In this document: piece by piece, positions 2,190 through 18,010 of the stretch | How the letters are laid out: each line of letters starts with the position of its first letter | How positions within the stretch are numbered: the stretch's first letter is position 1 | Assembly: GCA_949482135.1 (NCBI GenBank) | Contig: CASYFC010000005.1 | Location: 26,469 to 90,468, forward strand | From: an uncultured Clostridia bacterium | GTDB lineage: Bacteria > Bacillota > Clostridia > TANB77 > CAG-508 | DNA length: 64,000 bases | Reading direction: 5' to 3' | The notes under the pieces: generated by a model | Databases searched by the model: none | What the model saw: the letters and a program-made list of their open reading frames with translations, nothing else | Told to the model about the DNA's origin: nothing | Translations under genes and position numbers: made by a program

Positions 2190-2774
2190 ATGAGAAAAGA
2201 AAAAGTAAATGGGATAAATATAGTTTTTACAATAATAAAATTAATTTGTATAATACTATTAATATGTTTAATAGCAGTATTAGCTCTTCAAAGATTTTCA
2301 AATAATGAAATTGCTATAGGTGGATTTAGGATTTTTAATGTTGCTACAGAAAGTATGGTTCCTAAATATTTAGTTGGAGATGTTTTAATTGTTAAAGAAA
2401 CAGAAAACAATGAATTAAAAGTTGGTGATGATGTAACATATTTAGGAAAAGAAGGATCTTTTAATAGAAGAGTTGTAACTCATCAAATTGTACAAATTGA
2501 TGAAACTGAAAATGGTAAAGTTTTTCATACAAAAGGTATAGCAAATGAAGTTGAAGATCCTACAATAACAGGTGATCAAATATATGGTAGAGTTATTTAT
2601 AAATGTTTAATATTTAGCCAGTTAACAAAACTAATGAATAATATGACAGTATTTTATATTGTAGTATTTGTACCTTTTGCAATATTAGTATCATTACAAT
2701 TAAAAGATGCAATACTAGGGAAATCAGATGAGGAAGAAGATGATGATGAGTCTGATGAAAATGAAGAAAAATAA
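2190..2774 (+). CDS. sipW: Type I signal peptidase, SipW (archaeal/eukaryal-like S26B) type
   Basis: N-terminal TM, catalytic Ser context ATESMVPKY, His motif VVTHQIV, HTKGIANEVED, C-terminal TM and acidic tail. ATG 2190 is preferred over the track's TTG 2172. It starts 1 nt after the upstream stop. Confidence 0.8.
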   Translation: MRKEKVNGINIVFTIIKLICIILLICLIAVLALQRFSNNEIAIGGFRIFNVATESMVPKYLVGDVLIVKETENNELKVGDDVTYLGKEGSFNRRVVTHQIVQIDETENGKVFHTKGIANEVEDPTITGDQIYGRVIYKCLIFSQLTKLMNNMTVFYIVVFVPFAILVSLQLKDAILGKSDEEEDDDESDENEEK

Positions 2775-2801
2775 GTGATAAATAAAATGGAAGGAGTATA
2801 T

Positions 2802-3650
2802 ATGAATCACGACGATTTAGAGATAATGCTTGATAAAGAACTTGAAGAAATGTTATTGTTAGAAGCTGTTGAAGATAATGTTGATAATGAATTAAATGAA
2901 AAAAATCAAGTATCATCTAATAAAAAGAAGCGAAAAAAGTATACTAGAAAAAGACTAAAAGAAGCTATAAAAATAAGAACTGTAATAATATTATTATTAA
3001 CTTTACTTGTAAATACATATGCTTGGTTTATATATATTTCTACAGTTTCAACAGGATTAAATATACATGTTAAGAGCTGGGAATTCGAGTTCTCAGTTGA
3101 AGATAAAAAAGATGATATTGTTATATTTTCTGATGATTTATATCCTGGAATGGAAGAAGTAAAAAGAACAATAACTGCTACAAATAAAGGTGAAACATCA
3201 GCAAATTTATCTTATAAAATTTCATCTGTAAAAATTTTTGGAATAGATTTATTAGAAGGAAAAGAAGCTATTGATGAAAAAGAATTTCAAGAACTTCTAA
3301 AAGATTATCCATTTGAGATTCAAGTAAAAATGCTTTCGCAAGATGGAAACTCATATGACCCAAGTAATCCAATGGAAGAAAATGATAAAGTACAAATAGA
3401 ATTTACTTTAAACTGGGCATATGAGACAAAAGATACAGAAGGGAATGTTATAGAAGAGAAAGATCAATTAGATACACAAATAGGAAAAGATGCATATAAC
3501 TATTATCATTTTAAATATGAAAATGGTGTTCAAGTTGAATTAACAGAAGAAGAAAAAGCTCAAAGAAAGAATGCTATAGAGATTACTGTTCATATTGAAG
3601 CAACACAAACAAAACCTAATACAGAAGAATCAGTAGAACCTGAAGTATAA
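2802..3650 (+). CDS. Secreted TasA/BsaA-superfamily-like protein with a SipW-dependent-type signal peptide
   Basis: ATG 2802 lies behind a GGAAGGAG SD (the track's GTG 2775 is less likely). Basic patch KKKRKKYTRKR, then a TM ending in NTYAWF. The C-terminal strand ITVHIEATQ recalls the TasA-family C-terminus (from memory). Confidence 0.5.
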   Translation: MNHDDLEIMLDKELEEMLLLEAVEDNVDNELNEKNQVSSNKKKRKKYTRKRLKEAIKIRTVIILLLTLLVNTYAWFIYISTVSTGLNIHVKSWEFEFSVEDKKDDIVIFSDDLYPGMEEVKRTITATNKGETSANLSYKISSVKIFGIDLLEGKEAIDEKEFQELLKDYPFEIQVKMLSQDGNSYDPSNPMEENDKVQIEFTLNWAYETKDTEGNVIEEKDQLDTQIGKDAYNYYHFKYENGVQVELTEEEKAQRKNAIEITVHIEATQTKPNTEESVEPEV

Positions 3651-3657
3651 AAAAATC

Positions 3658-3683
3658 CCCCAATTGTTATATAGCAATTGGGG
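3658..3683. terminator. Bidirectional hairpin between convergent genes 2802..3650 and 3690..4355
   Basis: CCCCAATTG/CAATTGGGG stem flanked by A-rich and T-rich runs. Confidence 0.7.
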
Positions 3684-3689
3684 CTATTT

Positions 3690-4355
3690 TTATATATTAG
3701 AATTATTATTTTGAGAATTTAATTGCGTTACTTTTAAATTAACTGGAATTTTTATATTGGTATCTATTTGTGATTTTGAATTGTATACATCTTGGTAATT
3801 ATCTGCTTTATCTTTTTCTTGATCACTTAAATTTTCATATCCTTCAACACTACTATCTTTATCATACCACATAACATAGAAGGTCAAAAGATGTTTATTT
3901 TCAGATTGTATATTTTCTGGTGGATTAATAGTTCCTTTAATTGATTCATCTGTAGATTCAACTTTTGTTGAAGTTTCTGCATCATCAATTTTATATGAAA
4001 TAATTCTAAAATCTTCTATATTTGCAGATTTTCCTAAAGATATGTCATATTCAAATGGAATATCAGTTCCAGTAGAATCAATTTCTAATGTAAAGTAACC
4101 AGTAGAAGTAGGAACTAATACATTATTTTTAATATTTTCATTTTCTTCAAATTTTAATTCTAATTCTTCTGAAAAATTATTTGTTTCTGTAATATTTATT
4201 CCATTTACAAGAATATTCCAACCAGATATTTTGAATTCTGTTTTTTTATCTTCTTTTTCTATATATTTTGAATAAGTAGATTGAATTATTAAAAACAAAA
4301 CTATTAAAATTAAAACAAGCAAAATATTTTTCAGAGTTTTTCTATTATTTTTCAT
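3690..4355 (-). CDS. Small secreted TasA-like protein
   Basis: Basic N-terminus, TM, and STYSKY in the position of TYAWF. C-terminal NLKVTQ. Convergent with 2802..3650 and shares its hairpin terminator. Confidence 0.45.
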   Translation of the reverse strand: MKNNRKTLKNILLVLILIVLFLIIQSTYSKYIEKEDKKTEFKISGWNILVNGINITETNNFSEELELKFEENENIKNNVLVPTSTGYFTLEIDSTGTDIPFEYDISLGKSANIEDFRIISYKIDDAETSTKVESTDESIKGTINPPENIQSENKHLLTFYVMWYDKDSSVEGYENLSDQEKDKADNYQDVYNSKSQIDTNIKIPVNLKVTQLNSQNNNSNI

Positions 4356-4581
4356 AAATAAACTCCAATCATAATTAATCTAAGAAAATTTTAACATAGA
4401 CAAATTTTTTAGTCAATTAAAGTCGAAGATGTAACATATATGAAAGAAAAATGTAAAAATAATGTAATTGAGTGAAATGTATGAAATATGGTAAAATTAA
4501 CCTAAATTAGAGAATATGCAAAATTCAATATGTATGTCTAATCTAAGTAGCTTTTATCTAATAGGAGGTGAGGTTTTTCAA

Positions 4582-5286
4582 ATGAAAATGACAAAATTTG
4601 AATTTGAAAGAGCCTCTAAGAAAATATTTAGAAGAGATTTGAGAATCAAGATAATTAGATTGGCACTACTTATCTTATTGTTGATGCTGATTTTATTATA
4701 TTTTATTCTTTCAATAATCTATGATGCGGGACATTTCACTATTTCGCTTGATAGAAATTTAAGTTGGGAAAAAGGTATAATAATTTACGACAATTTAAAT
4801 GAGAAAAAGGTGTCAAAAAAACTTGAGGCGACAGCTTATAATGGTATGGACAATATCTCAATAGATTGGTTACCAGAAAATATTGATACTGAATCAGATG
4901 GCTCTCATAATGGTGATAATTATATTGCCTACACATTTTACATAGAAAATGAGGGAAAAGATACAGTTAATTACTGGTATACTACTTTAATTGATGATGT
5001 CATTCTAAATATAGATGAAGCTATAAGATTTATGGTATATTTAAATGGAGAACAAACTGTTTATGCTAAATTAAATGGTTTCACAGAAGAACCAGAAAAA
5101 GATACAAAAGCGTTTTATTCCGAAGATACTGTAATGTTAGAATGTAGACAAGACTTTAAACCAGGTGATGTAGATAGATTTACAATCGTCATTTTTGTTG
5201 AAGGTGATGATCCAGATTGTACTAATGCATTATTAGGTGGAGAGATAAAAATGCATATGGATATTACAGAAGAACATGTTGATTAA
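4582..5286 (+). CDS. N-terminally anchored or secreted protein; its C-terminal domain is paralogous to 5301..6413
   Basis: ATG 4582 follows GGAGGTGAGG (the track start 4516 has no SD). Single N-terminal TM. C-terminal RFTIVIFVEGDDPDC aligns with RYRIYMWMEGQDVDC of the next gene. Confidence 0.5.
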   Translation: MKMTKFEFERASKKIFRRDLRIKIIRLALLILLLMLILLYFILSIIYDAGHFTISLDRNLSWEKGIIIYDNLNEKKVSKKLEATAYNGMDNISIDWLPENIDTESDGSHNGDNYIAYTFYIENEGKDTVNYWYTTLIDDVILNIDEAIRFMVYLNGEQTVYAKLNGFTEEPEKDTKAFYSEDTVMLECRQDFKPGDVDRFTIVIFVEGDDPDCTNALLGGEIKMHMDITEEHVD

Positions 5287-5300
5287 TATAGGAGGAAAAA

Positions 5301-6413
5301 ATGAAGAAAAAAACAAAAGTTAACAAGAGAAAACTAGATAGTTTATTACTTGTTTTATTACTAACTGCAGTACTATTAATCATGTCTACTTATGCATGGT
5401 TTACTGCTAACAGAACAGTAAGCATTGATACTTTTGATGTTAGAGTAGAAACAACTAGTGGATTACAAATTTCTGCTACAGCTGAACCAGATAGCTGGAA
5501 AACATCATTAGATATAAATGATTTAATTAATGCAACTAAAAATACTACATTTGGTATAACAAATCAGTTACCAAGTACAATGGAACCAATGTCAACAGTT
5601 CCAGTAAATAAATCAGGAGTATTAGATATGTATTTAGGTACTACTGTTCAAAATGATGCTAGAGACGGATTTTATCTATCAACAGAATTAGAAAGAGAAA
5701 AATCTTATGTATCTGCAGATGGAGATAATGGACATTACATAGCATTTGATATTTTCTTAAAATCAGGTAATCCAGAAGATAATTTATATATGTATGGTAG
5801 TGTGATAGAAACAGATGCATCTGGAAATTCTTTAAATATTGAAAAAGAAAAAGGTATAGCCAATTCTGCTCGTGTAGCTATTTTAAGAAGTCCAAATACA
5901 GTAAATAAAGAAAATGGTGGAGAATTACGTAGCGAATTAACTCCTACTCATGATAAAGTATTATTATGGGAACCAAATGTCGATACACATACAGAAAAAG
6001 GTGCTGAAAATGCAAATGCATTAAAATGGCATGGTGAATCTATAGTAACAAAAGGTTCAGGAACAAGCCCTCTAGCTTATGATGGAGTTAAGGCAAGTAT
6101 TGCTCCAAAAACTTTATTATTACCAGAGGCTACAGCAACAGCTAACCCATCTATGTTTGAAAGAGTAACACCAACTTGGCAAACTACTCGTGCTCAAAAT
6201 AGTAATGCTAACTTAGAAATGCCACCAATAACTGAAGGTGGAAAAGCATTAGAGGCAGGAGTTGTAAGGTATAGAATCTATATGTGGATGGAAGGTCAAG
6301 ATGTTGACTGTGAAACTTCAGCAGCTGATTCATATGCACAATTTACATTAAACTTCACATTAGATAAACTTAAAGATGCTGGAGTAGATGCACCAGTTAT
6401 AGATGCAAAATAA
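5301..6413 (+). CDS. Secreted protein with a SipW-dependent-type signal peptide (candidate fibre subunit)
   Basis: AGGAGG SD. KKKTKVNKRK basic n-region, TM, then STYAWFTANRT, the TasA/CalY-type signal class. Strong hairpin terminator downstream. Confidence 0.55.
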   Translation: MKKKTKVNKRKLDSLLLVLLLTAVLLIMSTYAWFTANRTVSIDTFDVRVETTSGLQISATAEPDSWKTSLDINDLINATKNTTFGITNQLPSTMEPMSTVPVNKSGVLDMYLGTTVQNDARDGFYLSTELEREKSYVSADGDNGHYIAFDIFLKSGNPEDNLYMYGSVIETDASGNSLNIEKEKGIANSARVAILRSPNTVNKENGGELRSELTPTHDKVLLWEPNVDTHTEKGAENANALKWHGESIVTKGSGTSPLAYDGVKASIAPKTLLLPEATATANPSMFERVTPTWQTTRAQNSNANLEMPPITEGGKALEAGVVRYRIYMWMEGQDVDCETSAADSYAQFTLNFTLDKLKDAGVDAPVIDAK

Positions 6414-6431
6414 TACTTAGACTATAAATTC

Positions 6432-6466
6432 AAGGCGATAACATTAATTGTTATCGCCTTTTTTTC
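6432..6466 (+). terminator. Intrinsic terminator after 5301..6413
   Basis: AAGGCGATAAC/GTTATCGCCTT stem plus TTTTTT. Confidence 0.8.
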
Positions 6467-6554: not shown

Positions 6555-9500
6555 ATGACTAGGAAAAATAGAAGAAATAATAAAACTAAAAAAAGCCAAA
6601 CTATTCAAAGAAATTTAATTAGAAATATAGCAGTAATACTAGCTCTAATTGTTTTTTTATTTGTTATATATAGATTTAATTTTTCAAGTAAATCTGAACT
6701 AACAGAAACAGTAAAAATTAATTTCAAAGAATTTGGAGAAAATATTTCATTAGAAGAACAAGAACTAGATATGGAAGTTCTTACAGATGCTGATGGAATA
6801 AAATATATTTTCCTACCAGAAAAAGTAAATGGATATTTTGTAGAGCAATATTATATTACTAATTTAGAGGAAGATACCAATACCAATACTTCTATAACAT
6901 CAGATAATACAAATACACTTTTAGAAAATATTATTCCTGATACAAATGTGGCTGAAGAAGTTGCAGGATTAAAAAAATATTATTTAACTTCCCAAGAGTA
7001 TGAAGAAAATGAAATTAAGCAAAGTGAAGATAATGAAATTAAAGTAGAAGAAGAGATTAAAGAAAATCTAAAAGAAGATAAAAAAGAAGAAAATACTATA
7101 TCAAATACAATAAATAATAATTCAAATACTACAGTTCAAAATAATGTAACAAACGAAATTGAAAAAACAGATATTGAAAAAGAAAATGCAATAAAAAATG
7201 AATTGCAAAATAATACTGTATCAAATACAGTTGAAAATACTACAGATAAAAATGAAGTTATAGAAGATAAAAAAGATGATAGCGAAAATATACAAGATAT
7301 AAATAGTGAAACTATGAGTCAAACTGGAATTAAGCCAGGCACAAGATATAATGTATATGAAACAAATGAAAAAGGAAAATATACTTTAGGAAATATTTTA
7401 GTAGAAGTTGAATATCAAACTATAACAAATGAAGAAATAAAATTATATAATCAAGAATTAACTTTTAAAGATGAAAGTTCAGAAATTACGGTTACAGGAT
7501 ATATCCCAGCAGAATATGAATTAAATTGTATAAAAGAAAATTCAAATGAATTAGAAAATCAAGTAAATGAATATGAAGATTTGAAAGATTATCAAATGCT
7601 TTGCGTTTATGATATATCAATTCAAAAAGATGGAGTTGTTTATCAACCAGAAAATTATGCATGGGCACCAAGTGTTTCAGTAAATATTCAATCTACAGAT
7701 TTGAATTCATTACCAAATAAAGATGATGTAAAGTTAATACATTTTGCAGATTCGATTGAAACAATTGAAGGATTTGAAACAGAAGCAAATTCAATAGAAT
7801 TTAATGCTAAGGGATTTTCAAAATATGCAGTTCTTTCAAAAAGAGCAGTTACAGAAACTCAAGCTACAATAGATACGTATGAAGATGACAAGAATTATTA
7901 TTTAGGAAAAAATTATACAGATAATATTTCAGGAGAAAATACAAATCAATATTCTATTGATAATTTAGCAAATGTTACTGTAAATTATCATAGTGCTCCT
8001 GAAAAGAACTTTAGAAATGAAAATGTAGAATACAATTCGGAGTATAATTTGACTTATACATCAGATTCTCCTATAAATATATCTTCAAACGAAAGACTAG
8101 TTACCTATACTTTAACTTTAGATAAAAATGTAACTATAGGAGAGAATTGGGAAATAATAATAGATTTTGAACTTAACCAAGGAGCTGCTCAATTTCAATT
8201 TACAATTTTAAGTAATCCGACAGAATCTTATACTATAGACAATGGTGGAAGACAAATAAGATTAAATTCAAAAGATTACCGACTTGATAATAATACATTA
8301 AGTGTAAATATAATAATAAAACGTACTGATAAAAATTTAAGACCTAACATACCTAGTATAAATTTAAAACCCAAAATAGTAGAGCATCTAACATATTCTT
8401 ATGAATACAATATTTCAGAAAATAAAACTGGATATGTGTCTGCTACAGAAAGACAAAATCTTATAACATATCATAAAGCTGTTCCTATTATTAATGGACA
8501 AGTTGAATTGGAATTAATTGATAATCCTTTTATGGATAGACCATTTGGAACTGTTAATGAAGAATACTCTAATGGAAAAACAAGAGAATATCAATCTTTA
8601 TTTGGATTTAATGGTTGGAAAAATAAATCTGATGCATTACATATAATAGAAACTAATAAAGATACATATCAACAAATTCTAATTGCCAATGTAGAAGACA
8701 AAAATAATGTAGTAATAGATTTATATGTTGATTGGATCCCAGCGAATGTTGTTTTTGTAAAAGATGGTGGAAATGGTGATGGAAGAGAAAAAGAAAACCC
8801 TACAGGTACATGGACGCAAGCTATTGAAGCACTTAAAGATGAAAAGAATAAAAAAAGTGCAGAATTTGCATCAGATAGAGAAGTTAATATAATAGTTGTT
8901 ACAGGACCACTAAGTGCTGATGATAAAGCTCTTGCAACAGAGATTCCATTTACAGTTACTAGTTTGTATGATGGAGTAGACTATAGAATTGCTACAAATG
9001 CTACTATTACTTTAAATAAAGGCGTAAAAATTACTAATGATTTACAATTAGAATATTTAAATGTAATAGGGTCTACTAATTATATAGATACGAGAGATGA
9101 GTTGAATGATAGTATGAAGTATATTAATGGTAATTCATATAACTTACGTATTGGAAGAGGAATGCTACCATTAAACTATGCTGTTGATACTACTACGTTT
9201 GGACAAATTCAATGTGGTGGACAAAATAATAAACAATTTAAAACCGTAGTAGAATCTGGAAGATACTGTAATATCTATGTAGATAGAGCTCAAGGAACTG
9301 GAAATAATACAAATTTTTCAATGAATGGAACTTTAATTGTAGGTTGCGATTACGATAGATATATAGAAAATGGTAATAGTAATTTACAAATTTTCTCAAA
9401 AATTACATCAAGACGTAATAAGTCCAAAAATACTGCATTAGATGCTAATAAGCCTATATATAATATATATATTAAGAGTGGAATGATAGGAATTGATTGC

Positions 9501-12500
9501 TTTGAAAATTATGATGAAGCTGCATATTCAGGAATATATTTAAGCGGAAATTCAGGAGAATCAGCAACAGATTATGATGTAGGAGAAAGAAGACTAATTA
9601 TTGAAGGTGGAAAAGTATCTAATATAATAGGTGGATTAAAAACTTATAGTAGCGATAAAAACGCCACAAGTACACGTATATATATAAAAGGAAAAGACTC
9701 AAGTGTACAAAATATTATTGGAGGATGCGTAAGAATAAAAACATCCAGTGATAGAATTATCCAAATAACCAGTGGAACTATTGAATATAGTATTTTTTCA
9801 GGTTCTAACGGAAAAGATACTACAAATGCAGATATAGGTAGCTTAGATGGAAATACTTTGGTTTATGTTGGTGGAAATGCCAAAGTTGGTGGAACGAATA
9901 GATTAACGATTAATGGAAGTGATGGAGGAGATTCACTTTATGGTTTGCAATATGGATGTATACTTGGTGCTGGAAATGGAAATTCAAGTGTTGATACAGC
10001 AGGTGTAGTTAATTCTTCACATATTATAATTGATGGAAATGCTCAAATAAAAAATAATATATATGGTGGAGGAAACTTTGCGGGGGTTAGTGGAAATTCT
10101 CAGATAGATATGTATGGTGGAGTAGTTGGTGGAACTATACATGGAGGATCTAATAATTTAGGTAGAATAACAGGAGATGCAAATATAAACATAGCTGGTG
10201 GAACTATTAATGGTAATGTAAGAGATGAATCTTCAATTACAGCTGAAGGGAAATCAAAAGAAAATGAAGCTATTTTTGCAGGAGGATATGGACTTAATAC
10301 TAATATAAATGGAAATACTAATATTAATATTTATGATAAATTTGGGAATGTAAATATAAATGGAAATATTTATGGTGGTAGTGCTATGGGAAATGTTTCT
10401 CAAAAAGCTAATATAACTGTAAAACAAGAAAATGGTAATAAAATAGAAATTTCAGGAAATATATTTGGAGCTGGAAAAGGTTCAGAAAATAATCCATCCT
10501 CAAATGGAAGTGATATTAATATAACTATAGATGGTGGCGATTATGCATCAGTATTTGGAGGAGCAAATACAAGAGGATATGTTAATGGAAATATATATAT
10601 AAATATAGGGGAGACTAATCCAACAAAAGTAGATTCAGTATTTGGAGGAGGAAACAATGCTAATTTAACTGATAGTAAAAATAGCAGTCCTGCTGAAACT
10701 TATGAAGATAATATTAGACTTGGAAAAAATGCTACAATAACTAATGTATTTAATGGTGGAAATAATGCATCAATAAATAAAGAATTTAAATTAAAATTAG
10801 ATATAAATGGATCTACAGTCACAAATATATATGGTGGTGGAAACCTAGGAGCTGTTAATGGTTCTACTTTAATTATGGTAAAAGAAAATGCTAATATCGA
10901 AACAATACATGGTGGAGGAAAGAACGGAAATATTACAGGAAATATTGATTTAATGATATCTGATTCTATTATACAAAATGTATATGGTGGAGGAGAGAAT
11001 GGACAAGTTAAAGGATTAATCAAAGTAACTGTAAATTCAGCTTCAAAAATACTTGAAGATATATATGGTGCAGGTGAAGGTGCTAATGCTACAGTAGAAG
11101 GAAACACTGAAGTTAATATAGATAGTATAACAGTTAAAAATGTTTATGGTGGTGGAAGACTTGGAGATGTTAATGGACAAACGCAAGTAAGAATAACATC
11201 ATCAATAATAGAAGAAAATGCTTATGGAGCTGGTAGAGGTGAACTTGGAGACAATGACAAAGATAATGGTCAATTTGCTACTACACAAAAATCAAAAATT
11301 ATTATAGAAGGAAACTCTATTATAAAAGGAAATGTGTTTGGAGGAGGAAATGCCTCTAATGTTGGAAATAAGGGGGTTTCGGAAGCTAATAATACATATA
11401 TTGAAGGTTGTGATGCAGAAGTATATATTTCAGGGGCAACAATAGGAACAAAAGAAAATCAAGGAAATGTATATGGTGGATCAAATCGTTCTAAAATTTG
11501 TGGAAATACAAAAATATATATTGGAAAACCAGCGTTTGATGAAGGTTATATAAAAGGTATAATAGATATAAATGGAACAGTTTTTGGTGGTGGTGAATCA
11601 AGAACAAATAGTACAAACTTTGATTATAGTTTCTTGAGTGTTAATGGTGATATTGAAATCAATATTGATGCAAATGAATATGATTTAAATATAAAAGAAA
11701 ATATTTATGGTTCAGGAAATGCATCTAGTGCTAAGAATGATGGAAATATTTATATAAATAATTTGGGAAATGAAACAGATATTAAAAAATTAAAGTCAAT
11801 TCAGAGAGCAACAAATGTTGTAATAAATAATTCTGAATTACAATTACTAGGAGATACCAATAGTACCAATATACACGAAACTACATTATATTCATTAACA
11901 AATATTAAAGAATTAATTATAAAAAATGATACTACTTTATATTTAGAACATGGTTCATTTGCATTAACTGGATTTAGTAGTTTAAAATATAATGAAGCAA
12001 CTCAAACTGATGAGGAAGCAACTGTTACAATAGAAAATGGAATGCTAGACATAAATGGAAATAATAAAATATATATGTATAATGGACAACATTTGGATGT
12101 TGTAAATGCTACTGGTGATATATATGGAACAGTAAAAGGAATGACATTCTTTGGTCAGTATAGATATGATAATTCAGGAAAAATCGACAAAGGTATATAT
12201 GGAGATGAATTTATAAATCACCAAGTAGATGAATTATTATGGAAAGATAGAGATTTTACTCAGTCATATGTTTTAGGTGCACACACACTAGATTTACAAA
12301 GAATGGGATTCTATACAGTATATGAAGATTTAAGTCCTGAAGTAGAAGCACTTAAAGAACGTGGAGAATTAAAAGAAGAAAATTATGAGGCAGAAGGATA
12401 TCATATTGGGTATATTGAGCCAACACCTAATGATGAAAAAATAGCATATGATTATTGGCATACAGGATTTGTTACAGATATAATTAATGTAGATGTGGAT

Positions 12501-14651
12501 TTAAAAGCATCAAAATATTCGACTCTTGGTGTAGTAAGTAAACCATTACAAGGAGCAGAAAAATATCCAAATGCTACTTTAACATTAGATAGTTTTAGTA
12601 TATCTAGTGGATTAGATGAGAAAGAAATAGAATTTGTAGAAACAAGTTCTGTAAATAATATAGAAACAAATACAGATGTTGCTAATAAAACTTTCGGATT
12701 ATTAATGAAAACAAGTAATAATGGATGGATAAATAATTCAAGTACAGAATTTCTTCTAAATCCTGAAAAGCATCATGCACAAGTAAATAATGAAGATGCA
12801 AGTTACAAATTTTCAGAAAATCCAAGCGATACATATAAAGGAGATAATACATATTTAGCTGGAAGCTTGCCAAATTCAGTAGCGCCAACACTAGAGTTTT
12901 ATTTATATAATTCTAATACTCTTACATTAAAAACAGGAGAAATCGGTACATACAAATTAAGAATGACTTTAACTTGTATGGCAAATAATAAATATGTGAT
13001 TGTACCAGTTATTATCAATATTAAAATAACGGCTTCAGAAGATGAAGAAAAAGAAGGATACAATGGTGTAACTACTCCAGGAGCAAAATATGATATATTC
13101 CCACAAATGGCAACTAATATAACAGATAAAAGTAGTTTTTCAACTTACTTTGAATTAGCAAGAAAAGATGAAATAACTGAAGAACAATATAGTAAGGCAT
13201 ATAGAGTTATAAATGTAGGACTTGCATTGCCTAAAAATACAAGTATTACTATGATAGATAAATCTCAAGCACAACCAGAATATTATTATTATACTGTTAC
13301 TGAACAAGATGAATTTAATAAAAAAGAAGAGTTTAGATTAGATGAGTTTATACGTATGGGAACTACAGATGTTACTAAAAAGTATCAAGATAAAGCATAT
13401 TATGTAAATGAATATAAATATGAATGTTTTATATTTATAGTAGATTTCCAAAATGCAAGCTTTAATGGTAAACAAGGTCAAATAACCAATAGTCCTAGAA
13501 TGGAAATAAAGTTGATGAAAGATGAACAAGAAACTATTTATAGATTAATAAGTTCTCAACAAAAAGATGGAAAAACTGTATATAATGTATTTGGTACAAC
13601 GTCTGAACTTACTGTAAATTCAAAAGTAAGTAATTCAAGTATATATATTGGAAACACATCTATTCTAACAATAGATTCTTCATTAGTAACACAATCAACT
13701 ATGACAGATGATAAAACACATGAGGAAAGAACAGTAGATGTCTATAATACACAATATTTTGATAAAAAACTTGGAGCTGAAATAAGAATTTTAGATAAGA
13801 ATGGAAATCAAATTAGTGATTTAAAAGGAACAACATTCCAAGTTGAAGAAATAAGAGAGGTAGATGGAATAAAGAAAAAAAGTTACAATACTTATACACC
13901 ATATAATGGTATAATAAGATTAAAACTTGCTAATATTTTTTCAAATACATCAATACCAGTGATAATAAATACTAAAAATACTACTAACGATTTTGCAAAT
14001 AAATATGATATTGAAACAAAAGTATTCGCTTCAGCAGATGGGGTATATAATGGAAGAGAAAATATCTCAAATCCAACTAGAGAAGAAATATCATTTATAA
14101 GTAATGAGTATGGTTTAAACACGACTATTCCAGAAAATCAAGTTATAATAAATAAGCTTACATCAACAACATTAGATAAAGAAGGATATCTTTCAGATGA
14201 TTTAAAAGACTTAGATTTACACATTGAATATAAATATTCAGTTGCAAATCCATATTTAACAATATCTTTGGCAAGAAGAGATTATTCTGGTAATGATATA
14301 AGTCCTATATATATATCAGAGGGAATTGATTTTGCAGACTATTTAGTTCCAAAAGATGAAAAAGAACTAAAACGAGTTCTAGATATGAATGAAGATAAGA
14401 AGGCTATAGAATATGAAGCTCTAAGTACACAAGAAATGATTGATGCAAGTAAAGATGCAAATGGAAAAAGAACAGTGGATTTAAATTATCAAATAAAAGA
14501 TAATTTACCACTAACAGGAACATATAAAATAACAGTTACATTATATGATGTAAAACAAGATAATGTAGAAACTACTGGAGATACAGATACAAATTCAGAA
14601 GAAAAATATCAATATATTGGAGATGTATATTCATATATAATCATAAAATAA
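6555..14651 (+). CDS. Giant (2698 aa) N-terminally anchored surface protein with parallel beta-helix-like Gly-rich repeats
   Basis: Uninterrupted 8.1-kb ORF. Basic N-terminus plus one TM, then an N/T/E-rich low-complexity region. Dozens of degenerate (I/V)(Y/F)GGGN...V.GN repeats lie roughly between 9.6 and 11.7 kb. No LPXTG at the C-terminus. Confidence 0.75.
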   Translation: MTRKNRRNNKTKKSQTIQRNLIRNIAVILALIVFLFVIYRFNFSSKSELTETVKINFKEFGENISLEEQELDMEVLTDADGIKYIFLPEKVNGYFVEQYYITNLEEDTNTNTSITSDNTNTLLENIIPDTNVAEEVAGLKKYYLTSQEYEENEIKQSEDNEIKVEEEIKENLKEDKKEENTISNTINNNSNTTVQNNVTNEIEKTDIEKENAIKNELQNNTVSNTVENTTDKNEVIEDKKDDSENIQDINSETMSQTGIKPGTRYNVYETNEKGKYTLGNILVEVEYQTITNEEIKLYNQELTFKDESSEITVTGYIPAEYELNCIKENSNELENQVNEYEDLKDYQMLCVYDISIQKDGVVYQPENYAWAPSVSVNIQSTDLNSLPNKDDVKLIHFADSIETIEGFETEANSIEFNAKGFSKYAVLSKRAVTETQATIDTYEDDKNYYLGKNYTDNISGENTNQYSIDNLANVTVNYHSAPEKNFRNENVEYNSEYNLTYTSDSPINISSNERLVTYTLTLDKNVTIGENWEIIIDFELNQGAAQFQFTILSNPTESYTIDNGGRQIRLNSKDYRLDNNTLSVNIIIKRTDKNLRPNIPSINLKPKIVEHLTYSYEYNISENKTGYVSATERQNLITYHKAVPIINGQVELELIDNPFMDRPFGTVNEEYSNGKTREYQSLFGFNGWKNKSDALHIIETNKDTYQQILIANVEDKNNVVIDLYVDWIPANVVFVKDGGNGDGREKENPTGTWTQAIEALKDEKNKKSAEFASDREVNIIVVTGPLSADDKALATEIPFTVTSLYDGVDYRIATNATITLNKGVKITNDLQLEYLNVIGSTNYIDTRDELNDSMKYINGNSYNLRIGRGMLPLNYAVDTTTFGQIQCGGQNNKQFKTVVESGRYCNIYVDRAQGTGNNTNFSMNGTLIVGCDYDRYIENGNSNLQIFSKITSRRNKSKNTALDANKPIYNIYIKSGMIGIDCFENYDEAAYSGIYLSGNSGESATDYDVGERRLIIEGGKVSNIIGGLKTYSSDKNATSTRIYIKGKDSSVQNIIGGCVRIKTSSDRIIQITSGTIEYSIFSGSNGKDTTNADIGSLDGNTLVYVGGNAKVGGTNRLTINGSDGGDSLYGLQYGCILGAGNGNSSVDTAGVVNSSHIIIDGNAQIKNNIYGGGNFAGVSGNSQIDMYGGVVGGTIHGGSNNLGRITGDANINIAGGTINGNVRDESSITAEGKSKENEAIFAGGYGLNTNINGNTNINIYDKFGNVNINGNIYGGSAMGNVSQKANITVKQENGNKIEISGNIFGAGKGSENNPSSNGSDINITIDGGDYASVFGGANTRGYVNGNIYINIGETNPTKVDSVFGGGNNANLTDSKNSSPAETYEDNIRLGKNATITNVFNGGNNASINKEFKLKLDINGSTVTNIYGGGNLGAVNGSTLIMVKENANIETIHGGGKNGNITGNIDLMISDSIIQNVYGGGENGQVKGLIKVTVNSASKILEDIYGAGEGANATVEGNTEVNIDSITVKNVYGGGRLGDVNGQTQVRITSSIIEENAYGAGRGELGDNDKDNGQFATTQKSKIIIEGNSIIKGNVFGGGNASNVGNKGVSEANNTYIEGCDAEVYISGATIGTKENQGNVYGGSNRSKICGNTKIYIGKPAFDEGYIKGIIDINGTVFGGGESRTNSTNFDYSFLSVNGDIEINIDANEYDLNIKENIYGSGNASSAKNDGNIYINNLGNETDIKKLKSIQRATNVVINNSELQLLGDTNSTNIHETTLYSLTNIKELIIKNDTTLYLEHGSFALTGFSSLKYNEATQTDEEATVTIENGMLDINGNNKIYMYNGQHLDVVNATGDIYGTVKGMTFFGQYRYDNSGKIDKGIYGDEFINHQVDELLWKDRDFTQSYVLGAHTLDLQRMGFYTVYEDLSPEVEALKERGELKEENYEAEGYHIGYIEPTPNDEKIAYDYWHTGFVTDIINVDVDLKASKYSTLGVVSKPLQGAEKYPNATLTLDSFSISSGLDEKEIEFVETSSVNNIETNTDVANKTFGLLMKTSNNGWINNSSTEFLLNPEKHHAQVNNEDASYKFSENPSDTYKGDNTYLAGSLPNSVAPTLEFYLYNSNTLTLKTGEIGTYKLRMTLTCMANNKYVIVPVIINIKITASEDEEKEGYNGVTTPGAKYDIFPQMATNITDKSSFSTYFELARKDEITEEQYSKAYRVINVGLALPKNTSITMIDKSQAQPEYYYYTVTEQDEFNKKEEFRLDEFIRMGTTDVTKKYQDKAYYVNEYKYECFIFIVDFQNASFNGKQGQITNSPRMEIKLMKDEQETIYRLISSQQKDGKTVYNVFGTTSELTVNSKVSNSSIYIGNTSILTIDSSLVTQSTMTDDKTHEERTVDVYNTQYFDKKLGAEIRILDKNGNQISDLKGTTFQVEEIREVDGIKKKSYNTYTPYNGIIRLKLANIFSNTSIPVIINTKNTTNDFANKYDIETKVFASADGVYNGRENISNPTREEISFISNEYGLNTTIPENQVIINKLTSTTLDKEGYLSDDLKDLDLHIEYKYSVANPYLTISLARRDYSGNDISPIYISEGIDFADYLVPKDEKELKRVLDMNEDKKAIEYEALSTQEMIDASKDANGKRTVDLNYQIKDNLPLTGTYKITVTLYDVKQDNVETTGDTDTNSEEKYQYIGDVYSYIIIK

Positions 14652-14680
14652 CAAAAGGAGACGGTAGTCTCCTTTTGTTA
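14651..14680 (+). terminator. Hairpin after the giant gene
   Basis: ACAAAAGGAGAC/GTCTCCTTTTGT 12-bp stem with a GGTA loop. The T-run lies partly inside the stem. Confidence 0.55.
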
Positions 14681-14772
14681 TATAAATTTAACATAAAAAG
14701 TATAGACTATAATTTTAAATTAATATATAATATTTATGAAATATTAGTAATTTCTCGAAAGGAATTAATACA

Positions 14773-14898
14773 ATGGATAAAGGTTTTGAATTTTCAGAAT
14801 TAAGTAACAATGAGCTACTAGAGTTATATAAAAAATCAGAAGAATATATAACTTTTTTAGAAAAAGAAAAAAGAATGAAAGGTACTGATGAAAAATGA
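14773..14898 (+). CDS. Small (41 aa) hypothetical protein, translationally coupled to the next gene
   Basis: AAAGGA SD. Its stop overlaps the next start in ATGA (14895..14898). Not in the ORF track because it is short. Confidence 0.35.
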   Translation: MDKGFEFSELSNNELLELYKKSEEYITFLEKEKRMKGTDEK

Positions 14899-16502
14899 GC
14901 GATATATTAGAAAAGTTTGACCAATATATCTCAACAAATAAGGAAGTTTTAAGTGTTTTACCAACTAATACCAAAAAGAATGTTTCTAAATACTTAGAAA
15001 AAGTTGATGAATTTTTAGTAGAGGCAGAAAAAATAAATATAGATATTTTTAATGCAATAGATGAAAGATATGAAAAAATTGTAAATGTAGTAGAAAATTC
15101 AAAAATTGGTGAGTTAACGAAAAATATTGAAAATATAAAAGACATAGAGTTATTTAATGAATTAAATACTGCTTATGAAAAGTTAGAATTTGATAAAATA
15201 AATAATAATTTAGATTGCTTTTTTGAAGGTAACTTGGAGTCTGTAAATATAAACATAAAATTGTTTATAGAAAAATTTAAGGATTGTGGAATCACTTTAA
15301 CAGCAGAAGATTTTAGTTATAGTCAGTATACTAAAGAATATATGAAAGTATTTTTTGAAGAGACTGCTGATGGAAACTTAAATACACCTAGATTAAAAGA
15401 AAAATTTGATGCTTTATATTGGAAGTGTACAGATTTAGTAACTCATATTCAATTAAATTTAAGACATTTATATAATCTTAATTCTAAAAAAATTGAAAAA
15501 TTACAAAAAGATAGAAATATTTCAATTTTAAAAAGTATGTCTGTAGACAAAAATGGATTGGTAAAAAGATATTTCGAGTTAAATGAAGAGTTAATAAATT
15601 TAAAAAGTATAGATTCAAATAGTATACTTGAGAAATTTCTTTCTGGAGAATGGAAATCAAAAGACTTTTCTGATAAAGAAATGCTTTCTTTATATTCAAG
15701 ATTATGTTCAATAAATTATTATTCTGCATCTCCTGAAAGACAAATAGAAATAGATAAAACTTTTGAAAATTTACTAAAAACGCTTCAAGAGTATAATACA
15801 TATAGGAAGTATAAATATATTTTAGATGATTTAAAATCTAGATGTAAGAAAAAAGATTCTTTTAAGGAAGAGCATGATAACAAAATTAAAGAAATACATA
15901 AAAAAGAACAAGAATTATTAAAAGAAACTGAAAACAATAAAAAATTAATAAAAAGAAAATCTAATCCATTCTTTATATTATTTAGAAAAAAATTGGAAAG
16001 AAAAATTTATGAATTTCCAGTTGCTTCAAATGCATTAATAAAAGAAATCAAAAACTTGTATAAAGAATTAGATGATTCTGAAGTTAATCTTAGAATTGCA
16101 GAATTTGTTGATGATACATGTACAATAAAATATATGTTTAAAATTGCTGTATCTTTCTATTCATATGCGTATAATATAATAAAAGAACATTACAAAAATG
16201 ATCCAGAAGTTAATATAGCAACGGAATTACAAGATTTAGTTGATTTTATAAATCAACCATATAAAGTAATGTTGAACAATATAAAATTAGTTGAAGAACC
16301 AAACATTGTTTCAATAATTTCAAATAAATATAAAATATTAAATATTAATATTGAAGAAGCAGATTTAGAAGAAAATCTAGAAGGACTTATTGCAGATGTT
16401 GAAAAAATAGTTAATAACAGAAATATTTCTAGAAGTGGTCTTAAACTAAATGATATTGAATTCATAGAAACAGTAAAGCCAATTGTTATGAAAAAGCAGT
16501 GA
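14895..16502 (+). CDS. Coiled-coil-rich cytoplasmic hypothetical protein (535 aa)
   Basis: Long ORF with K/E/L-rich heptad-like composition and no TM. Ends a few nt before the second signal peptidase gene. Confidence 0.55.
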   Translation: MSDILEKFDQYISTNKEVLSVLPTNTKKNVSKYLEKVDEFLVEAEKINIDIFNAIDERYEKIVNVVENSKIGELTKNIENIKDIELFNELNTAYEKLEFDKINNNLDCFFEGNLESVNINIKLFIEKFKDCGITLTAEDFSYSQYTKEYMKVFFEETADGNLNTPRLKEKFDALYWKCTDLVTHIQLNLRHLYNLNSKKIEKLQKDRNISILKSMSVDKNGLVKRYFELNEELINLKSIDSNSILEKFLSGEWKSKDFSDKEMLSLYSRLCSINYYSASPERQIEIDKTFENLLKTLQEYNTYRKYKYILDDLKSRCKKKDSFKEEHDNKIKEIHKKEQELLKETENNKKLIKRKSNPFFILFRKKLERKIYEFPVASNALIKEIKNLYKELDDSEVNLRIAEFVDDTCTIKYMFKIAVSFYSYAYNIIKEHYKNDPEVNIATELQDLVDFINQPYKVMLNNIKLVEEPNIVSIISNKYKILNINIEEADLEENLEGLIADVEKIVNNRNISRSGLKLNDIEFIETVKPIVMKKQ

Positions 16503-16510
16503 GGATAAAA

Positions 16511-17123
16511 ATGAGATATGAACCAGAAGTGATATCAAAAAGAGTAAAAAGAAATAAGAAAATAAAAAAATTCTCTACTATATTTTTATATTTACTTTTA
16601 ATATTTACAATGATATTTAGTTTGTTTTTAATTACTTTGGAACTAGGAAATTCAAACGAAGTTCCTAGTTTTTTTAATAATGCCATTTACACAGTATCAT
16701 CTGAAAGTATGAAGCCAAAGATGAATGTAAATGATATTATTATTGTAAAAAGAGGATATGCAAGTAATAAATATAAAGTGGGTAATGTAATCACTTTTAC
16801 AGATAATAATCGGAAATATTATTACTCATAGGATTTCAAAAATAGTAAATTTAGGCGATGATTATGGATTTATTACTAAAGGTGATAGCAACAGCATTGA
16901 AGATGAAAATGTTGTTACATATAATCAGGTTATAGGAAAAGTAATTTTAGTAATGCCTAAATTTGGTAAAATTGTTAGTATATTGAAAAATAAAATATTT
17001 TTTAGTTTTTGTATAATAACTTTAATTTCAATTTTGATATACGATATAAGAGTAAAAGAAAGAAAAATTTCTAGAAAATTAGCTAGAGAAAGATATGAAA
17101 AAAAATCAGATTTTTATTTTTAA
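16511..17123 (+). pseudogene. Second SipW-type signal peptidase, interrupted: needs a +1 shift at in-frame CGG 16811..16813 (frameshifted or recoded)
   Basis: GAGGA SD before ATG 16511. Ser motif SSESMKPKM in frame 2. After AAT-CGG the +1 frame (16812..17123) reads GNIITHRISKIV..FITKGDSNSIED..VIGKV plus a C-terminal TM, colinear with the SipW at 2190. Confidence 0.8.
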
Positions 17124-18004: not shown

Positions 18005-18010
18005 CTTGTT

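What the first reader, a model, noticed from the sequence alone, without database searches (positions are those of the whole stretch)
2190..17123. Expanded SipW/TasA-like fibre locus with four subunit-like genes, a 2698-aa beta-helix protein and two peptidases
Seen: two SipW-type peptidase genes bracket the region. Three genes (2802, 3690c, 5301) encode a basic n-region, a TM, and TYAWF or TYSKY. These are joined by a related anchored protein (4582), a giant repeat protein and a coiled-coil protein. Established: SipW processes TasA/TapA in B. subtilis (tapA-sipW-tasA) and CalY/TasA in B. cereus. C. perfringens has sipW-bsaA. The SipW-dependent signal class has a (G/S)TxA(x)F motif at the cleavage region. 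Inference: this is a matrix or fibre assembly system far more elaborate than those operons. The giant protein could be cargo, tip or anchor. I do not know of a described system with this composition.
Basis: partly seen in the sequence, partly recalled or inferred. Interest (0 to 1): 0.7.

Follow-up and report, generated by a model that had tools for sequence, protein, structure and literature searches.

The report
McrBC-linked SipW surface-fibre gene cluster
This is part of a roughly 27-kb, 17-gene cluster, conserved in hundreds of uncultured gut Firmicutes, that combines several SipW-type signal peptidases, eight membrane-anchored exported proteins (one of 2698 aa) and a membrane-tethered GTPase derived from a restriction enzyme; it most likely builds a cell-surface fibre by a route nobody has studied.

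Summary
(1) The second SipW gene (16511-17123) carries a +1 frameshift, also seen in independent assemblies. (2) The cluster does not start at 2190. It runs off the window start, and about 6.4 kb more lies upstream. That stretch holds another active SipW, a catalytically dead SipW paralogue, three more anchored proteins and a cytoplasmic protein. They are the most conserved genes of the cluster.

The whole set is colinear in the loci that reach far enough, among 80 kept of at least 532 matches in Clostridia and Bacilli MAGs. It fits "CoCoPALM", a class named in two sentences by Bell et al. 2024 and never described.

A TasA relationship is not demonstrated:
- Pfam and NCBIfam gave no TasA/camelysin hit.
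- HHalign against 111 TasA-family proteins gave at most 15% probability.
- Foldseek gave no significant hit, although the TasA fibre and an archaeal thread ranked first and second for the 5301 protein.

Best reading: a SipW-processed surface fibre and giant-adhesin system with a GTPase module of unknown role. The function is inferred, not shown.

The parts
1..1037 (+). U7, 3' part: membrane-tethered McrB-type GTPase. The full gene is 511 aa and starts about 498 nt before the window.
   Evidence: The full gene is read from L008, which differs from the window at 14 of 12188 nt. It has one TM at about residues 50-80. Walker A GISGTGKT, Walker B ILDEMN and YIGTINNDDSTF are 100% invariant in 52 orthologues. 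The best PDB sequence hits are E. coli McrB 6ut6/7vsr/6hz4, E about 7e-4. It hits PADLOC PDC-M26A at 1.6e-38.
1055..2188 (+). W1: McrC-like partner (DUF2357), 377 aa. No nuclease domain was detected and it has no TM.
   Evidence: Pfam DUF2357 at 50.1 bits (cutoff 23.3), covering residues 40-162 only. No PDB or PADLOC hit. Present in 57 of 89 loci, always next to U7.
2190..2774 (+). W2: SipW-type (S26B) signal peptidase, 194 aa, two TMs.
   Evidence: TIGR02228 at 74.5 bits, above its cutoff. The catalytic Ser (xSM) and His (TH) are kept in about 50 orthologues. The Asp of the KGD box is Ile here.
2802..3650 (+). W3: exported small subunit-like protein, 282 aa. It has an acidic cytoplasmic extension, a basic stretch, a TM, then NTYAWF. 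The C-terminus reads ...IEATQ.
   Evidence: Sequence. One TM. HHalign to U2 gives 94.6% over 176 columns. It is the best, but still insignificant, match to TasA: 14.8%, W3 residues 74-132 against TasA 25-78.
3658..3683 (.). Bidirectional terminator-like hairpin between the convergent genes W3 and W4.
3690..4355 (-). W4: exported small subunit-like protein, 221 aa. TM, then STYSKY, then a beta-sandwich. It lies on the opposite strand in nearly every locus.
   Evidence: AlphaFold2 model with pLDDT 76: an N-terminal helix followed by about 8 strands. Foldseek returns only generic beta-sandwiches, including the PapG pilin domain, FimG and CBMs; the TasA fibre ranks 50. HHalign to U4 gives 96.9% and to W6 91.2%.
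4582..5286 (+). W5: highly conserved TM-anchored protein, 234 aa, with C-terminal EGDDPDC...GGE.KMHMDITEEH.
   Evidence: E about 1e-124 between species whose W6 proteins are about 40% identical. HHalign to the W6 C-terminus gives 81.5%. Consensus sequence.
5301..6413 (+). W6: candidate major subunit, 370 aa. Basic stretch, TM, STYAWFTANRTV, a large beta domain, then the invariant W.EGQD.DC.N motif.
   Evidence: AlphaFold2 pLDDT 90.3, pTM 0.86. The family has 3673/1261/485 clusters at E<=1e-3/1e-10/1e-30 and no Pfam model. Below-cutoff TIGR04088 hits in 42 of 52 members.
6432..6460 (+). Intrinsic-terminator-like hairpin after W6.
   Evidence: 12-bp stem plus a T-run. A similar hairpin follows W6 orthologues in 38 of 77 loci, against 0-1 of about 50 for eight other cluster genes and 15 of 49 for W3.
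6555..14651 (+). W7: giant exported protein, 2698 aa. N-terminal basic stretch plus one TM, a poorly conserved N-terminal ~700 aa, a Gly/Asn-rich repeat core (~1000-1700) and a conserved C-terminal ~1000 aa.
   Evidence: No Pfam or PDB match. Orthologues in Bacilli-type clusters carry TM + TYG(D/E/A)(Y/F), the same junction motif as the small proteins.
14773..14898 (+). Small 41-aa ORF overlapping the W9 start codon.
   Evidence: Gene calls of 40-41 aa occupy the same position in related genomes.
14895..16502 (+). W9: 535-aa cytoplasmic Lys/Glu-rich protein with no TM.
   Evidence: Found in 52 of 89 loci, always beside the giant gene. No Pfam, NCBIfam or PADLOC hit.
16511..17123 (+). W10: fourth SipW-type peptidase gene, disrupted by a +1 frameshift near 16808-16812.
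   Evidence: The same split (106 aa + 56 aa) appears in three independent assemblies.

Best explanation
The finding is the downstream two-thirds of a conserved cluster of about 17 genes. The cluster most likely builds and displays a proteinaceous cell-surface fibre carrying a giant adhesin-like protein. [quoted passage not shown]

Proposed mechanism:
1. Eight proteins are inserted into the membrane by a basic-stretch + TM signal-anchor that ends in a [ST]-[YF]-[ASG]-x-[YF] junction. These are U2, U4, U5, W3, W4, W5, W6 and the 2698-aa W7.
2. The active SipW-type peptidases (U3, W2) cut after the small residue of that junction, as SipW cuts TasA after T-W-A. This frees a conserved N-terminal strand.
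3. W6, the abundant subunit, polymerises. This probably occurs by inserting that strand into the beta-sandwich of its neighbour.
4. The small paralogues (U2, U4, W3, W4) act as minor, initiator or adaptor subunits. W5 is the conserved membrane-proximal anchor. W7 is the cargo or tip.
5. On the cytoplasmic face sit a membrane-tethered McrB-type GTPase ring (U7) with its nuclease-less McrC-like activator (W1), plus U6, W9 and the 41-aa protein. This module powers or gates a step such as ordered hand-over of anchored subunits to the peptidases.
6. The dead peptidase U1 serves as a substrate-holding accessory.

Shown: gene content, colinearity, conservation of catalytic residues, paralogy of the subunits, predicted beta-sandwich folds, and the terminator after W6. 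Inferred: cleavage, polymerisation, donor-strand exchange, and any role of the GTPase.
For: - Cluster conservation: every component from U1 to W9 recurs in 51-89 of 89 related loci in the same order. The flanking genes (DUF4116, yqfC, yqfD) do not recur. At least 532 genomic matches exist, all in uncultured gut Clostridia and Bacilli MAGs.
- Peptidases: U3 and W2 exceed the TIGR02228 cutoff. Their Ser and His are kept in about 50 orthologues each. U1 lacks both in all 54 orthologues.
- Substrates: eight proteins have exactly one N-terminal TM and share the junction motif. HHalign links U2, U4, W3 and W4 (94-97%), W4 to W6 (91%) and W5 to W6 (81%).
- Signal class: 42 of 52 W6 homologues give below-cutoff TIGR04088 SipW-cognate hits, and no other family recurs as often.
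- Folds: AlphaFold2 gives a TM helix, a low-confidence linker and then a beta domain for both W6 and W4.
- Structure search: the top Foldseek hits for W6 are two donor-strand filaments, the TasA fibre and the Saci_0406 thread. For W4 the hits include chaperone-usher pilin domains.
- Major-subunit signature: a terminator-like hairpin follows W6 in 38 of 77 loci.
- Conservation pattern: machinery genes are highly conserved (U7 E about 1e-290; W1, U6 and W5 about 1e-125 to 1e-148), while exported subunits diverge fast. This is typical of pilus systems.
- Motor: the U7 motifs are invariant, its best solved relatives are McrB, and W1 is DUF2357.
- Literature: Bell et al. 2024 describe exactly this combination of an FtsB-like TM/coiled-coil fusion and signal peptidase neighbours, and predict pilus assembly.
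Against: - No experiment exists for any member.
- No significant sequence, profile or fold match ties the subunits to TasA or to any solved pilin.
- The TIGR04088 hits checked fall below the curated cutoff, and the TYSKY family gives none.
- Known TasA-superfamily fibres assemble outside the cell without an NTPase, so the GTPase has no precedent in this role.
- The nearly invariant TM segment of W6 could mean the helix is kept rather than cleaved.
- W2 lacks the Asp of the KGD box, and one of the four peptidase genes is a pseudogene here.
- Polymerisation was not modelled, because no multimer prediction was available.
Confidence: 0.55

Rival explanations
1. A dedicated export-and-anchoring apparatus for the giant W7 protein rather than a polymeric fibre. 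The small anchored proteins would form a finite stalk or membrane platform that holds W7 on the surface. The GTPase would help extract or thread this very large substrate.
For: - W7 is always present next to W9.
- It carries the same N-terminal anchor and junction motif as the small proteins.
- Residues 800-2500 of W7 are well conserved.
- No evidence of polymerisation was obtained.
Against: - W6 shows the signatures of an abundant subunit: a downstream terminator, fast divergence, and a second copy in Bacilli-type clusters.
- Five or six paralogous small subunits are more than a simple anchor would need.
Confidence: 0.2
2. A type-IV-filament-like machine. The N-terminal helices of the subunits are kept and pack into a filament core, and the McrB-type GTPase plays the part of the PilB/PilT motor. 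The SipW paralogues would trim only a short leader or act on other substrates.
For: - The TM segment of W6 is almost invariant across proteins that share about 40% identity.
- AlphaFold2 models show a long N-terminal helix.
- A membrane-associated hexameric NTPase sits beside many pilin-like genes.
Against: - No prepilin peptidase, PilB/PilC or GFxxxE-type leader is present.
- The small-residue junction lies after the TM, not before it.
- Two or three catalytically intact SipW-type enzymes are conserved.
Confidence: 0.1
3. An McrBC-derived defence or abortive-infection system. The GTPase pair would sense invading nucleic acid, and the membrane and exported proteins would act as effectors.
For: - U7 and W1 are McrB and McrC homologues.
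- The U7 GTPase domain matches the candidate defence model PDC-M26A at E 1.6e-38.
- The sister clade, CoCoNuT, is predicted to be a restriction system.
Against: - W1 has no detectable nuclease domain.
- U7 has a TM anchor in place of a DNA-binding domain.
- Twelve of about 17 genes are peptidases or exported proteins, one of them 2698 aa.
- The other cluster proteins tested (U6, W1, W5, W6, W9) give no PADLOC hit, and W2 gives only a weak KwaA match (E 5e-4).
- The locus is colinear in hundreds of species rather than patchy like a defence island.
Confidence: 0.08
4. A sporulation-linked structure (spore appendage or coat fibre). TasA was first described as the spore-coat-associated protein CotN, and the cluster sits next to yqfC/yqfD here.
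For: - yabP/yqfC-like and yqfD genes lie directly downstream at 17669-19195.
- TasA homologues are often annotated as 'spore coat-associated protein N'.
Against: - The adjacency is not conserved. A yqfC match recurs in 1 of 89 loci and yqfD in none.
- The cluster is also common in Bacilli and 'Tenericutes'-labelled reduced genomes.
Confidence: 0.05

Closest known systems
[quoted passage not shown]
   Same: An McrB-type GTPase is fused to an N-terminal TM + helical segment. Its partner is a DUF2357 (McrC N-terminal domain) protein. Signal-peptidase-family genes sit in the same operon. All three features are present here.
   Different: The paper gives only two sentences and defers the description to a later publication. 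No follow-up is in the searched library. The pseudo-peptidase, the eight anchored substrates, the giant protein, U6/W9 and the two gene orders are not mentioned in the text I read.
Bacillus subtilis tapA-sipW-tasA (and B. cereus sipW-tasA-calY)
   Same: A dedicated SipW-type (TIGR02228) peptidase is encoded beside its substrates. The junction T-Y-A|W-F resembles TasA's T-W-A|A-F. There is one major subunit plus accessory subunits. The predicted fold is a beta-sandwich with a free N-terminal segment.
   Different: No detectable homology to TasA/Peptidase_M73. This cluster has 3-4 peptidase paralogues instead of one, 8 substrates instead of 2, a 2698-aa substrate, and a cytoplasmic GTPase module with no counterpart in the Bacillus operons.
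Archaeal and bacterial TasA-superfamily loci (AbpX, Tafi, AbpA, Saci_0406 threads) with SPase I, accessory proteins, minor subunits, tip and anchor (bioRxiv 10.64898/2026.01.04.697558; PMC9715654)
   Same: These are multi-gene loci that combine a TIGR02228-type peptidase, a major subunit, minor subunits, a tip adhesin and a membrane anchor. The TasA fibre and the Saci_0406 thread are the two best Foldseek matches of W6.
   Different: The matches are not significant (E 0.08-0.26, TM 0.19-0.32). Those loci have no NTPase. The DUF5305 accessory protein was not detected here.
McrBC type IV restriction system / CoCoNuT
   Same: The AAA+ GTPase domain has the McrB signature region, and the partner is a DUF2357 protein.
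   Different: The DNA-binding domain is replaced by a TM anchor. No PD-(D/E)xK nuclease was detected. The genomic context is exported proteins, not methylases or nucleases.
Type IV filament (T4P / Tad / Com) systems
   Same: Works alike in outline: many small N-terminally anchored subunits (one major, several minor), a dedicated peptidase, and a membrane-associated hexameric NTPase.
   Different: No component is homologous. The peptidase is a Ser/His S26B enzyme, not an aspartic prepilin peptidase. The cleavage motif follows the TM. The motor is an McrB-type GTPase, not a PilB-type ATPase.

Membership tests
CoCoPALM (Bell et al. 2024) | McrB-like GTPase of the NxD-motif branch | tested here: inconclusive
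   YIGTINNDDSTF is invariant in 52 orthologues. In the phmmer alignment to E. coli McrB, N353 pairs with the N of NTAD and no Asp falls at +3, so the motif reads N-D-D. N352-N-D-D355 could formally still be read as NxxD. No phylogeny was made.
CoCoPALM (Bell et al. 2024) | GTPase fused to an FtsB-like TM + coiled-coil N-terminal region | tested here: inconclusive
   One TM at about residues 50-80, followed by a charged helical stretch. The only matches are weak: Pfam FtsL_2 E 0.022 and NCBIfam ATP synthase subunit b E 0.0016. No coiled-coil predictor was run.
CoCoPALM (Bell et al. 2024) | Adjacent McrC homologue (DUF2357) | tested here: met
   Pfam DUF2357 at 50.1 bits, above the 23.3 cutoff. 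It is always adjacent to U7.
CoCoPALM (Bell et al. 2024) | Signal-peptidase-family genes in the same operon | tested here: met
   U3 scores 77.6 bits and W2 74.5 bits against TIGR02228, both above the cutoff. U1 and W10 are further paralogues.
SipW-type signal peptidase (S26B; TIGR02228) | Model score above cutoff, with the catalytic Ser and His present | tested here: met
   Met for W2 and U3. Not met for U1: 33.5 bits, with Ser and His absent. W10 is frameshifted.
SipW-dependent-type signal peptide (TIGR04088) | N-terminal region scores above the curated cutoff (19 bits) | tested here: not met
   W6 scores 15.3 bits. 42 of 52 homologues hit at E<=1, best E 0.0011. The W4/U2 family gives no hits. 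The region resembles the model but does not pass it.
TasA / camelysin family (Pfam PF12389 Peptidase_M73) | Sequence or profile match to the family | tested here: not met
   No hit for any cluster protein or for the 52 W6 homologues at E<=10. HHalign against 111 TasA-family sequences gives a best probability of 14.8% (W3); the others are at most 5.5%.
TasA superfamily (jelly-roll, donor-strand fibres) | Significant structural similarity to a solved member | tested here: inconclusive
   W6 model: 8aur_A ranks 1 (E 0.076, TM 0.19/0.28) and 7pnb_A ranks 2 (E 0.26). W4 model: 8aur_A ranks 50 (E 0.031). Nothing reaches E<=0.001.
TasA superfamily (jelly-roll, donor-strand fibres) | Polymerisation by donor-strand complementation | not testable with these tools
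   No multimer structure prediction was available. Only monomer models were made.
McrBC restriction system | McrC partner carries a PD-(D/E)xK nuclease domain | tested here: not met
   W1 is 377 aa. Only DUF2357 (residues 40-162) is detected, and there is no nuclease hit in Pfam, NCBIfam, PADLOC or PDB sequences. Its fold was not predicted.
Type IV filament systems | Prepilin peptidase, PilB-type ATPase and PilC-type platform | tested here: not met
   None was detected among the cluster proteins in Pfam or NCBIfam.

The most novel reading that the evidence does not exclude
The cluster encodes a previously unrecognised class of energised surface-filament machine in monoderm bacteria. A hexameric GTPase recruited from the McrBC restriction system, tethered to the membrane and activated by a nuclease-less McrC, would drive or gate the release and ordered polymerisation of SipW-cleaved beta-sandwich subunits and a giant adhesin. 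It would be a functional analogue of type IV pili built from entirely unrelated parts.
Probability: 0.3. Interest if true: 0.9.

Novelty: new variant of a known kind. Interest (0 to 1): 0.72.

Why it matters
- **Reach.** The marker subunit family has at least 1261 clusters (50% identity) at E<=1e-10 and no Pfam model. It occurs in at least 532 genomic matches, all in uncultured gut Clostridia (TANB77/'Ca. Scatovivens'-like) and Bacilli with small genomes. Almost nothing is known about the surface biology of these lineages, and some are linked to host phenotypes.
- **If the reading is right.** It would add a new way of building surface fibres in Gram-positive bacteria. It would show a restriction-enzyme motor repurposed for envelope biogenesis. 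It would also give function to more than ten families of 'hypothetical' proteins.
- **Testability.** It turns the two-sentence CoCoPALM prediction into a concrete parts list: which peptidases are active, which is dead, which protein is the major subunit, and where cleavage should occur.

Tried and rejected
- **Sequence searches of W6 and W4 against the PDB.** Single-sequence and profile searches found nothing relevant.
- **Pfam and NCBIfam on the cluster proteins.** The only matches above cutoff were the peptidases and DUF2357; the McrB-like hits were far below their cutoffs.
- **TasA homology.** Tested with Pfam, NCBIfam, HHalign against 111 verified TasA-family sequences, and Foldseek. Nothing was significant. 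My remembered TasA sequence was first checked against 8aur and matched over residues 28-261.
- **Phage origin.** Foldseek against BFVD gave no hit.
- **Invertible-segment idea for the reversed W4 gene.** No convincing flanking inverted repeats were found.
- **TANB77 'conserved pilin' paper (PMC11680825).** It describes a Tad-type pilus, a different cluster.
- **Sporulation link.** The neighbours yqfC/yqfD are not conserved with the cluster.
- **Sigma-70 promoter scan.** No enrichment over shuffled sequence (122 found, 136 expected), so it was uninformative.
- **AlphaFold2 with my locus-derived alignment A2.** It was redone with database homologues.
- **Supplementary files of Bell et al.** No CoCoPALM details are held.

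Full report
**What is in the window**

Gene calls in near-identical public contigs give the same starts: 2190, 2802, 4582, 5301, 6555, 14895 and 16511.

- The product of 2190-2774 passes the archaeal/SipW-type signal peptidase I model TIGR02228 (74.5 bits, cutoff 51.85).
- 2802, 3690c and 5301 each encode a basic stretch, a single TM and then NTYAWF, STYSKY or STYAWF.
- The pattern TY[AS].[FY] occurs four times in 22.7k residues of long ORFs in the window. Three of the four are these proteins, directly after the TM.
- 4582 and the 2698-aa protein also have one N-terminal TM.

**First correction: the second peptidase gene is broken**

The reading frame from 16511 stops at 16831. The remainder (THR, KGD, second TM) continues in another frame to 17123, so one extra base lies near 16808-16812. 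Three independent assemblies of the same species carry the same split into 106-aa and 56-aa genes. It is therefore a real pseudogene in this species, or less likely a programmed shift. It is not a sequencing error.

**Second correction: the locus is larger than the finding**

The neighbourhoods of the 5301 homologues P0001 (90% identity) and P0074 (39%) show the same genes in the same order. They also show seven further conserved genes upstream.

Contig L008 differs from the window at only 14 of 12188 overlapping bases, so it shows what lies before the window:

| Gene | Size | Description |
|---|---|---|
| U1 | 321 aa | SipW-like |
| U2 | 234 aa | TM + STYSKY, paralogue of 3690c |
| U3 | 163 aa | SipW-type, TIGR02228 77.6 bits |
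| U4 | 211 aa | anchored |
| U5 | 328 aa | anchored |
| U6 | 331 aa | no TM |
| U7 | 511 aa | TM, helical stretch, P-loop NTPase |

The window's ORF at 108-1037 is the 3' part of U7. The gene at 1055-2188 (W1) is a DUF2357 protein (50.1 bits, cutoff 23.3).

**Conservation across genomes**

A pattern scan of 185,579 species genomes found at least 532 loci encoding a 5301 relative. All are in uncultured gut Clostridia ('Ca. Scatovivens' and relatives) or Bacilli/'Tenericutes'-labelled MAGs.

I searched the ORFs of 89 fetched loci with phmmer, using all cluster proteins as queries:
- Every component from U1 to W9 is present in 51-89 loci. The shortfalls fit truncated contigs.
- The flanking genes are not conserved: DUF4116 and yqfD were found in none of the 89 loci, and a yqfC match in one.

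Two gene orders exist:
- Clostridia-type: U1 U2 U3 U4 U5 U6 U7 W1 W2 W3 w4 W5 W6 W7 W9.
- Bacilli-type: U1 U5 U6 U7 W1 W2 W3 w4 W5 W6 W7 W9 U1 U2 U3 U4 W6'.

The most conserved proteins are U7 (E about 1e-290), W1, U6 and W5. The exported W6, W3, W4, U2, U4 and U5 diverge fast.

**The peptidases**

- U3 and W2 keep the catalytic Ser (xSM) and His (TH) in about 50 orthologues each.
- U1 lacks both residues in all 54 orthologues, so it is a conserved pseudo-peptidase.
- HHalign confirms that the three families are homologous (97-99.8%).

**The exported proteins**

Profile-profile comparison links most of them:

| Pair | Probability | Region |
|---|---|---|
| U2-U4 | 96.8% | 128 columns |
| U4-W4 | 96.9% | beyond the signal region |
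| U2-W3 | 94.6% | 176 columns |
| W4-W6 | 91% | N-terminal ~80-100 residues |
| W5-W6 | 81% | C-terminal EG.D.DC stretch |

- The junction after the TM is conserved within each family.
- In Bacilli-type clusters the giant protein reads TM + TYG(D/E/A)(Y/F), the same motif.
- The W6 family is large, with 3673/1261/485 clusters at E<=1e-3/1e-10/1e-30. It has no Pfam model and no informative name.
- AlphaFold2 models show an N-terminal helix, a low-confidence linker at the junction, and then a beta domain. This holds for W6 (pLDDT 90.3, pTM 0.86) and W4 (pLDDT 76).
- A terminator-like hairpin follows W6 at 6432-6460. It recurs after W6 orthologues in 38 of 77 loci, against 0-1 of about 50 for eight other cluster genes and 15 of 49 for W3. 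This fits W6 being the abundant subunit.

**Is it TasA-like?**

Negative results:
- No Peptidase_M73/TasA hit in Pfam or NCBIfam for any cluster protein or for 52 W6 homologues.
- No PDB sequence hit.
- HHalign against 111 TasA-family sequences gave at most 14.8% probability (W3 74-132 against TasA 25-78) and at most 5.5% for the rest. I gathered those sequences with a TasA query that I first verified against 8aur.
- Foldseek gave no hit at E<=0.001 for either model.

Weak positive results:
- The two best PDB matches of W6 are the TasA fibre 8aur (E 0.076) and the Saci_0406 thread 7pnb (E 0.26). Both are donor-strand filaments, and a recent survey places both in the TasA superfamily.
- W4 matches chaperone-usher pilin domains and generic beta-sandwiches.
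- 42 of 52 W6 homologues hit the SipW-cognate signal model TIGR04088; the window protein falls below its cutoff (15.3 against 19 bits) and the best E-value among them is 0.0011.
- Colinear motifs resemble TasA: T-aromatic-A/S-x-F, xPGxxG, and a C-terminal ...A.Q.

I conclude that the system plausibly works like a SipW/TasA fibre, but membership of the TasA family is not shown.

**The GTPase module**

- In U7, Walker A (GISGTGKT), Walker B (ILDEMN) and YIGTINNDDSTF are invariant in 52 orthologues.
- Its only solved relatives by sequence are E. coli McrB structures, at E about 7e-4. The alignment puts N353 on the N of NTAD with no Asp at +3. That is an N-D-D motif, consistent with the NxD branch.
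- The GTPase domain matches the PADLOC candidate model PDC-M26A at 1.6e-38.
- W1 shows only DUF2357 and no nuclease domain.

Bell et al. [quoted passage not shown] They name this clade CoCoPALM and defer it to a future paper. I found no follow-up in the searched library and nothing in the held supplements. The present locus fits that description and supplies its parts list.

**Mechanism**

The most likely mechanism has these steps; steps 1-3 and 5 are inferred:
1. Eight proteins are inserted as signal-anchored precursors.
2. U3 and W2 cut after the small residue of [ST]-[YF]-[ASG]-x-[YF].
3. W6 polymerises, and the small paralogues serve as minor or adaptor subunits. W5 acts as the conserved base and the giant W7 as cargo or tip.
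4. The membrane-tethered U7/W1 GTPase sits on the cytoplasmic side with U6, W9 and the 41-aa protein.
5. That module powers or gates assembly.

Rivals:
- A non-polymeric display apparatus for W7.
- A type-IV-like filament that keeps the TM helices.
- An McrBC-type defence system.
- A spore-associated structure.

The defence reading is weakened by the missing nuclease, by the replacement of the DNA-binding domain with a TM anchor, and by twelve exported or peptidase genes. The sporulation reading is weakened by the non-conserved adjacency to yqfC/yqfD.

**Context**

- The organism has murein and sortase machinery: a Mur ligase, a D-Ala-D-Ala carboxypeptidase and an LPFTG-anchored 1574-aa protein.
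- It also has sporulation genes yabP/yqfD.
- The published TANB77 'conserved pilin' belongs to a Tad-type cluster, not this one.

**Verdict**

A fibre-assembly function is plausible, while TasA membership is unproven.
- The system is uncharacterised, widespread in uncultured gut Firmicutes, and has been named but not described in the literature.

Noticed in passing
window 16511-17123: The fourth SipW-type peptidase gene carries a +1 frameshift just before the catalytic His. The same split is present in three independent assemblies of the species, so one of the cluster's peptidases is decaying here.
   Followed up: yes
L008 3559-4524 (upstream of the window start): U1 is a SipW paralogue that lacks the catalytic Ser and His in all 54 orthologues examined. 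In this species it also has a ~160-aa Lys/Glu-rich tail. It is a conserved pseudo-peptidase of unknown role.
   Followed up: partly
window 6432-6460 and 3658-3683: A strong terminator-like hairpin follows the 5301 gene and is conserved after its orthologues in 38 of 77 loci. A bidirectional hairpin lies between the convergent 2802 and 3690c genes.
   Followed up: yes
window 6555-14651: The N-terminal ~700 residues of the giant protein are poorly conserved, while residues ~800-2500 align in about 57 of 62 orthologues. In one relative (L004) the gene is split into 1158-aa and 1887-aa ORFs.
   Followed up: partly
window 5301-6413 and 4582-5286: An invariant acidic/Cys motif is present: W.EGQD.DC.N in the 5301 family and EGDDPDC in 4582. 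It could be a metal site or a cross-link site. Calcium-dependent donor-strand assembly is reported for archaeal AbpX and cannulae.
   Followed up: no
window 2802-2980: The 2802 protein has a ~55-residue acidic segment before its basic stretch and TM. This is unusually long for a Sec signal n-region and is possibly a cytoplasmic docking tail.
   Followed up: no
window 14773-14898: A 41-aa ORF overlaps the start codon of the 535-aa gene. It is also called at the same position in related genomes.
   Followed up: partly
window 56688-61412: A 1574-aa surface protein has an N-terminal TM, DUF7601 and SpaA-type domains, and a C-terminal LPFTG sortase signal. It is unrelated to the cluster.
   Followed up: partly
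window 17135-17665: A 176-aa protein made of five DUF4116 repeats (E 1e-55) lies between the cluster and yabP/yqfD. It is not a conserved neighbour of the cluster.
   Followed up: partly
L025/L062, L059/L065, L073/L076 (pairs on the same contigs): Bacilli-type clusters carry two 5301-like genes about 12 kb apart, and a second U1 copy. This suggests a modular duplication of a 'peptidase + small subunits + major subunit' cassette.
   Followed up: partly
window 1-64000: The whole 64 kb contains no tRNA gene and no Rfam family at gathering score.
   Followed up: yes
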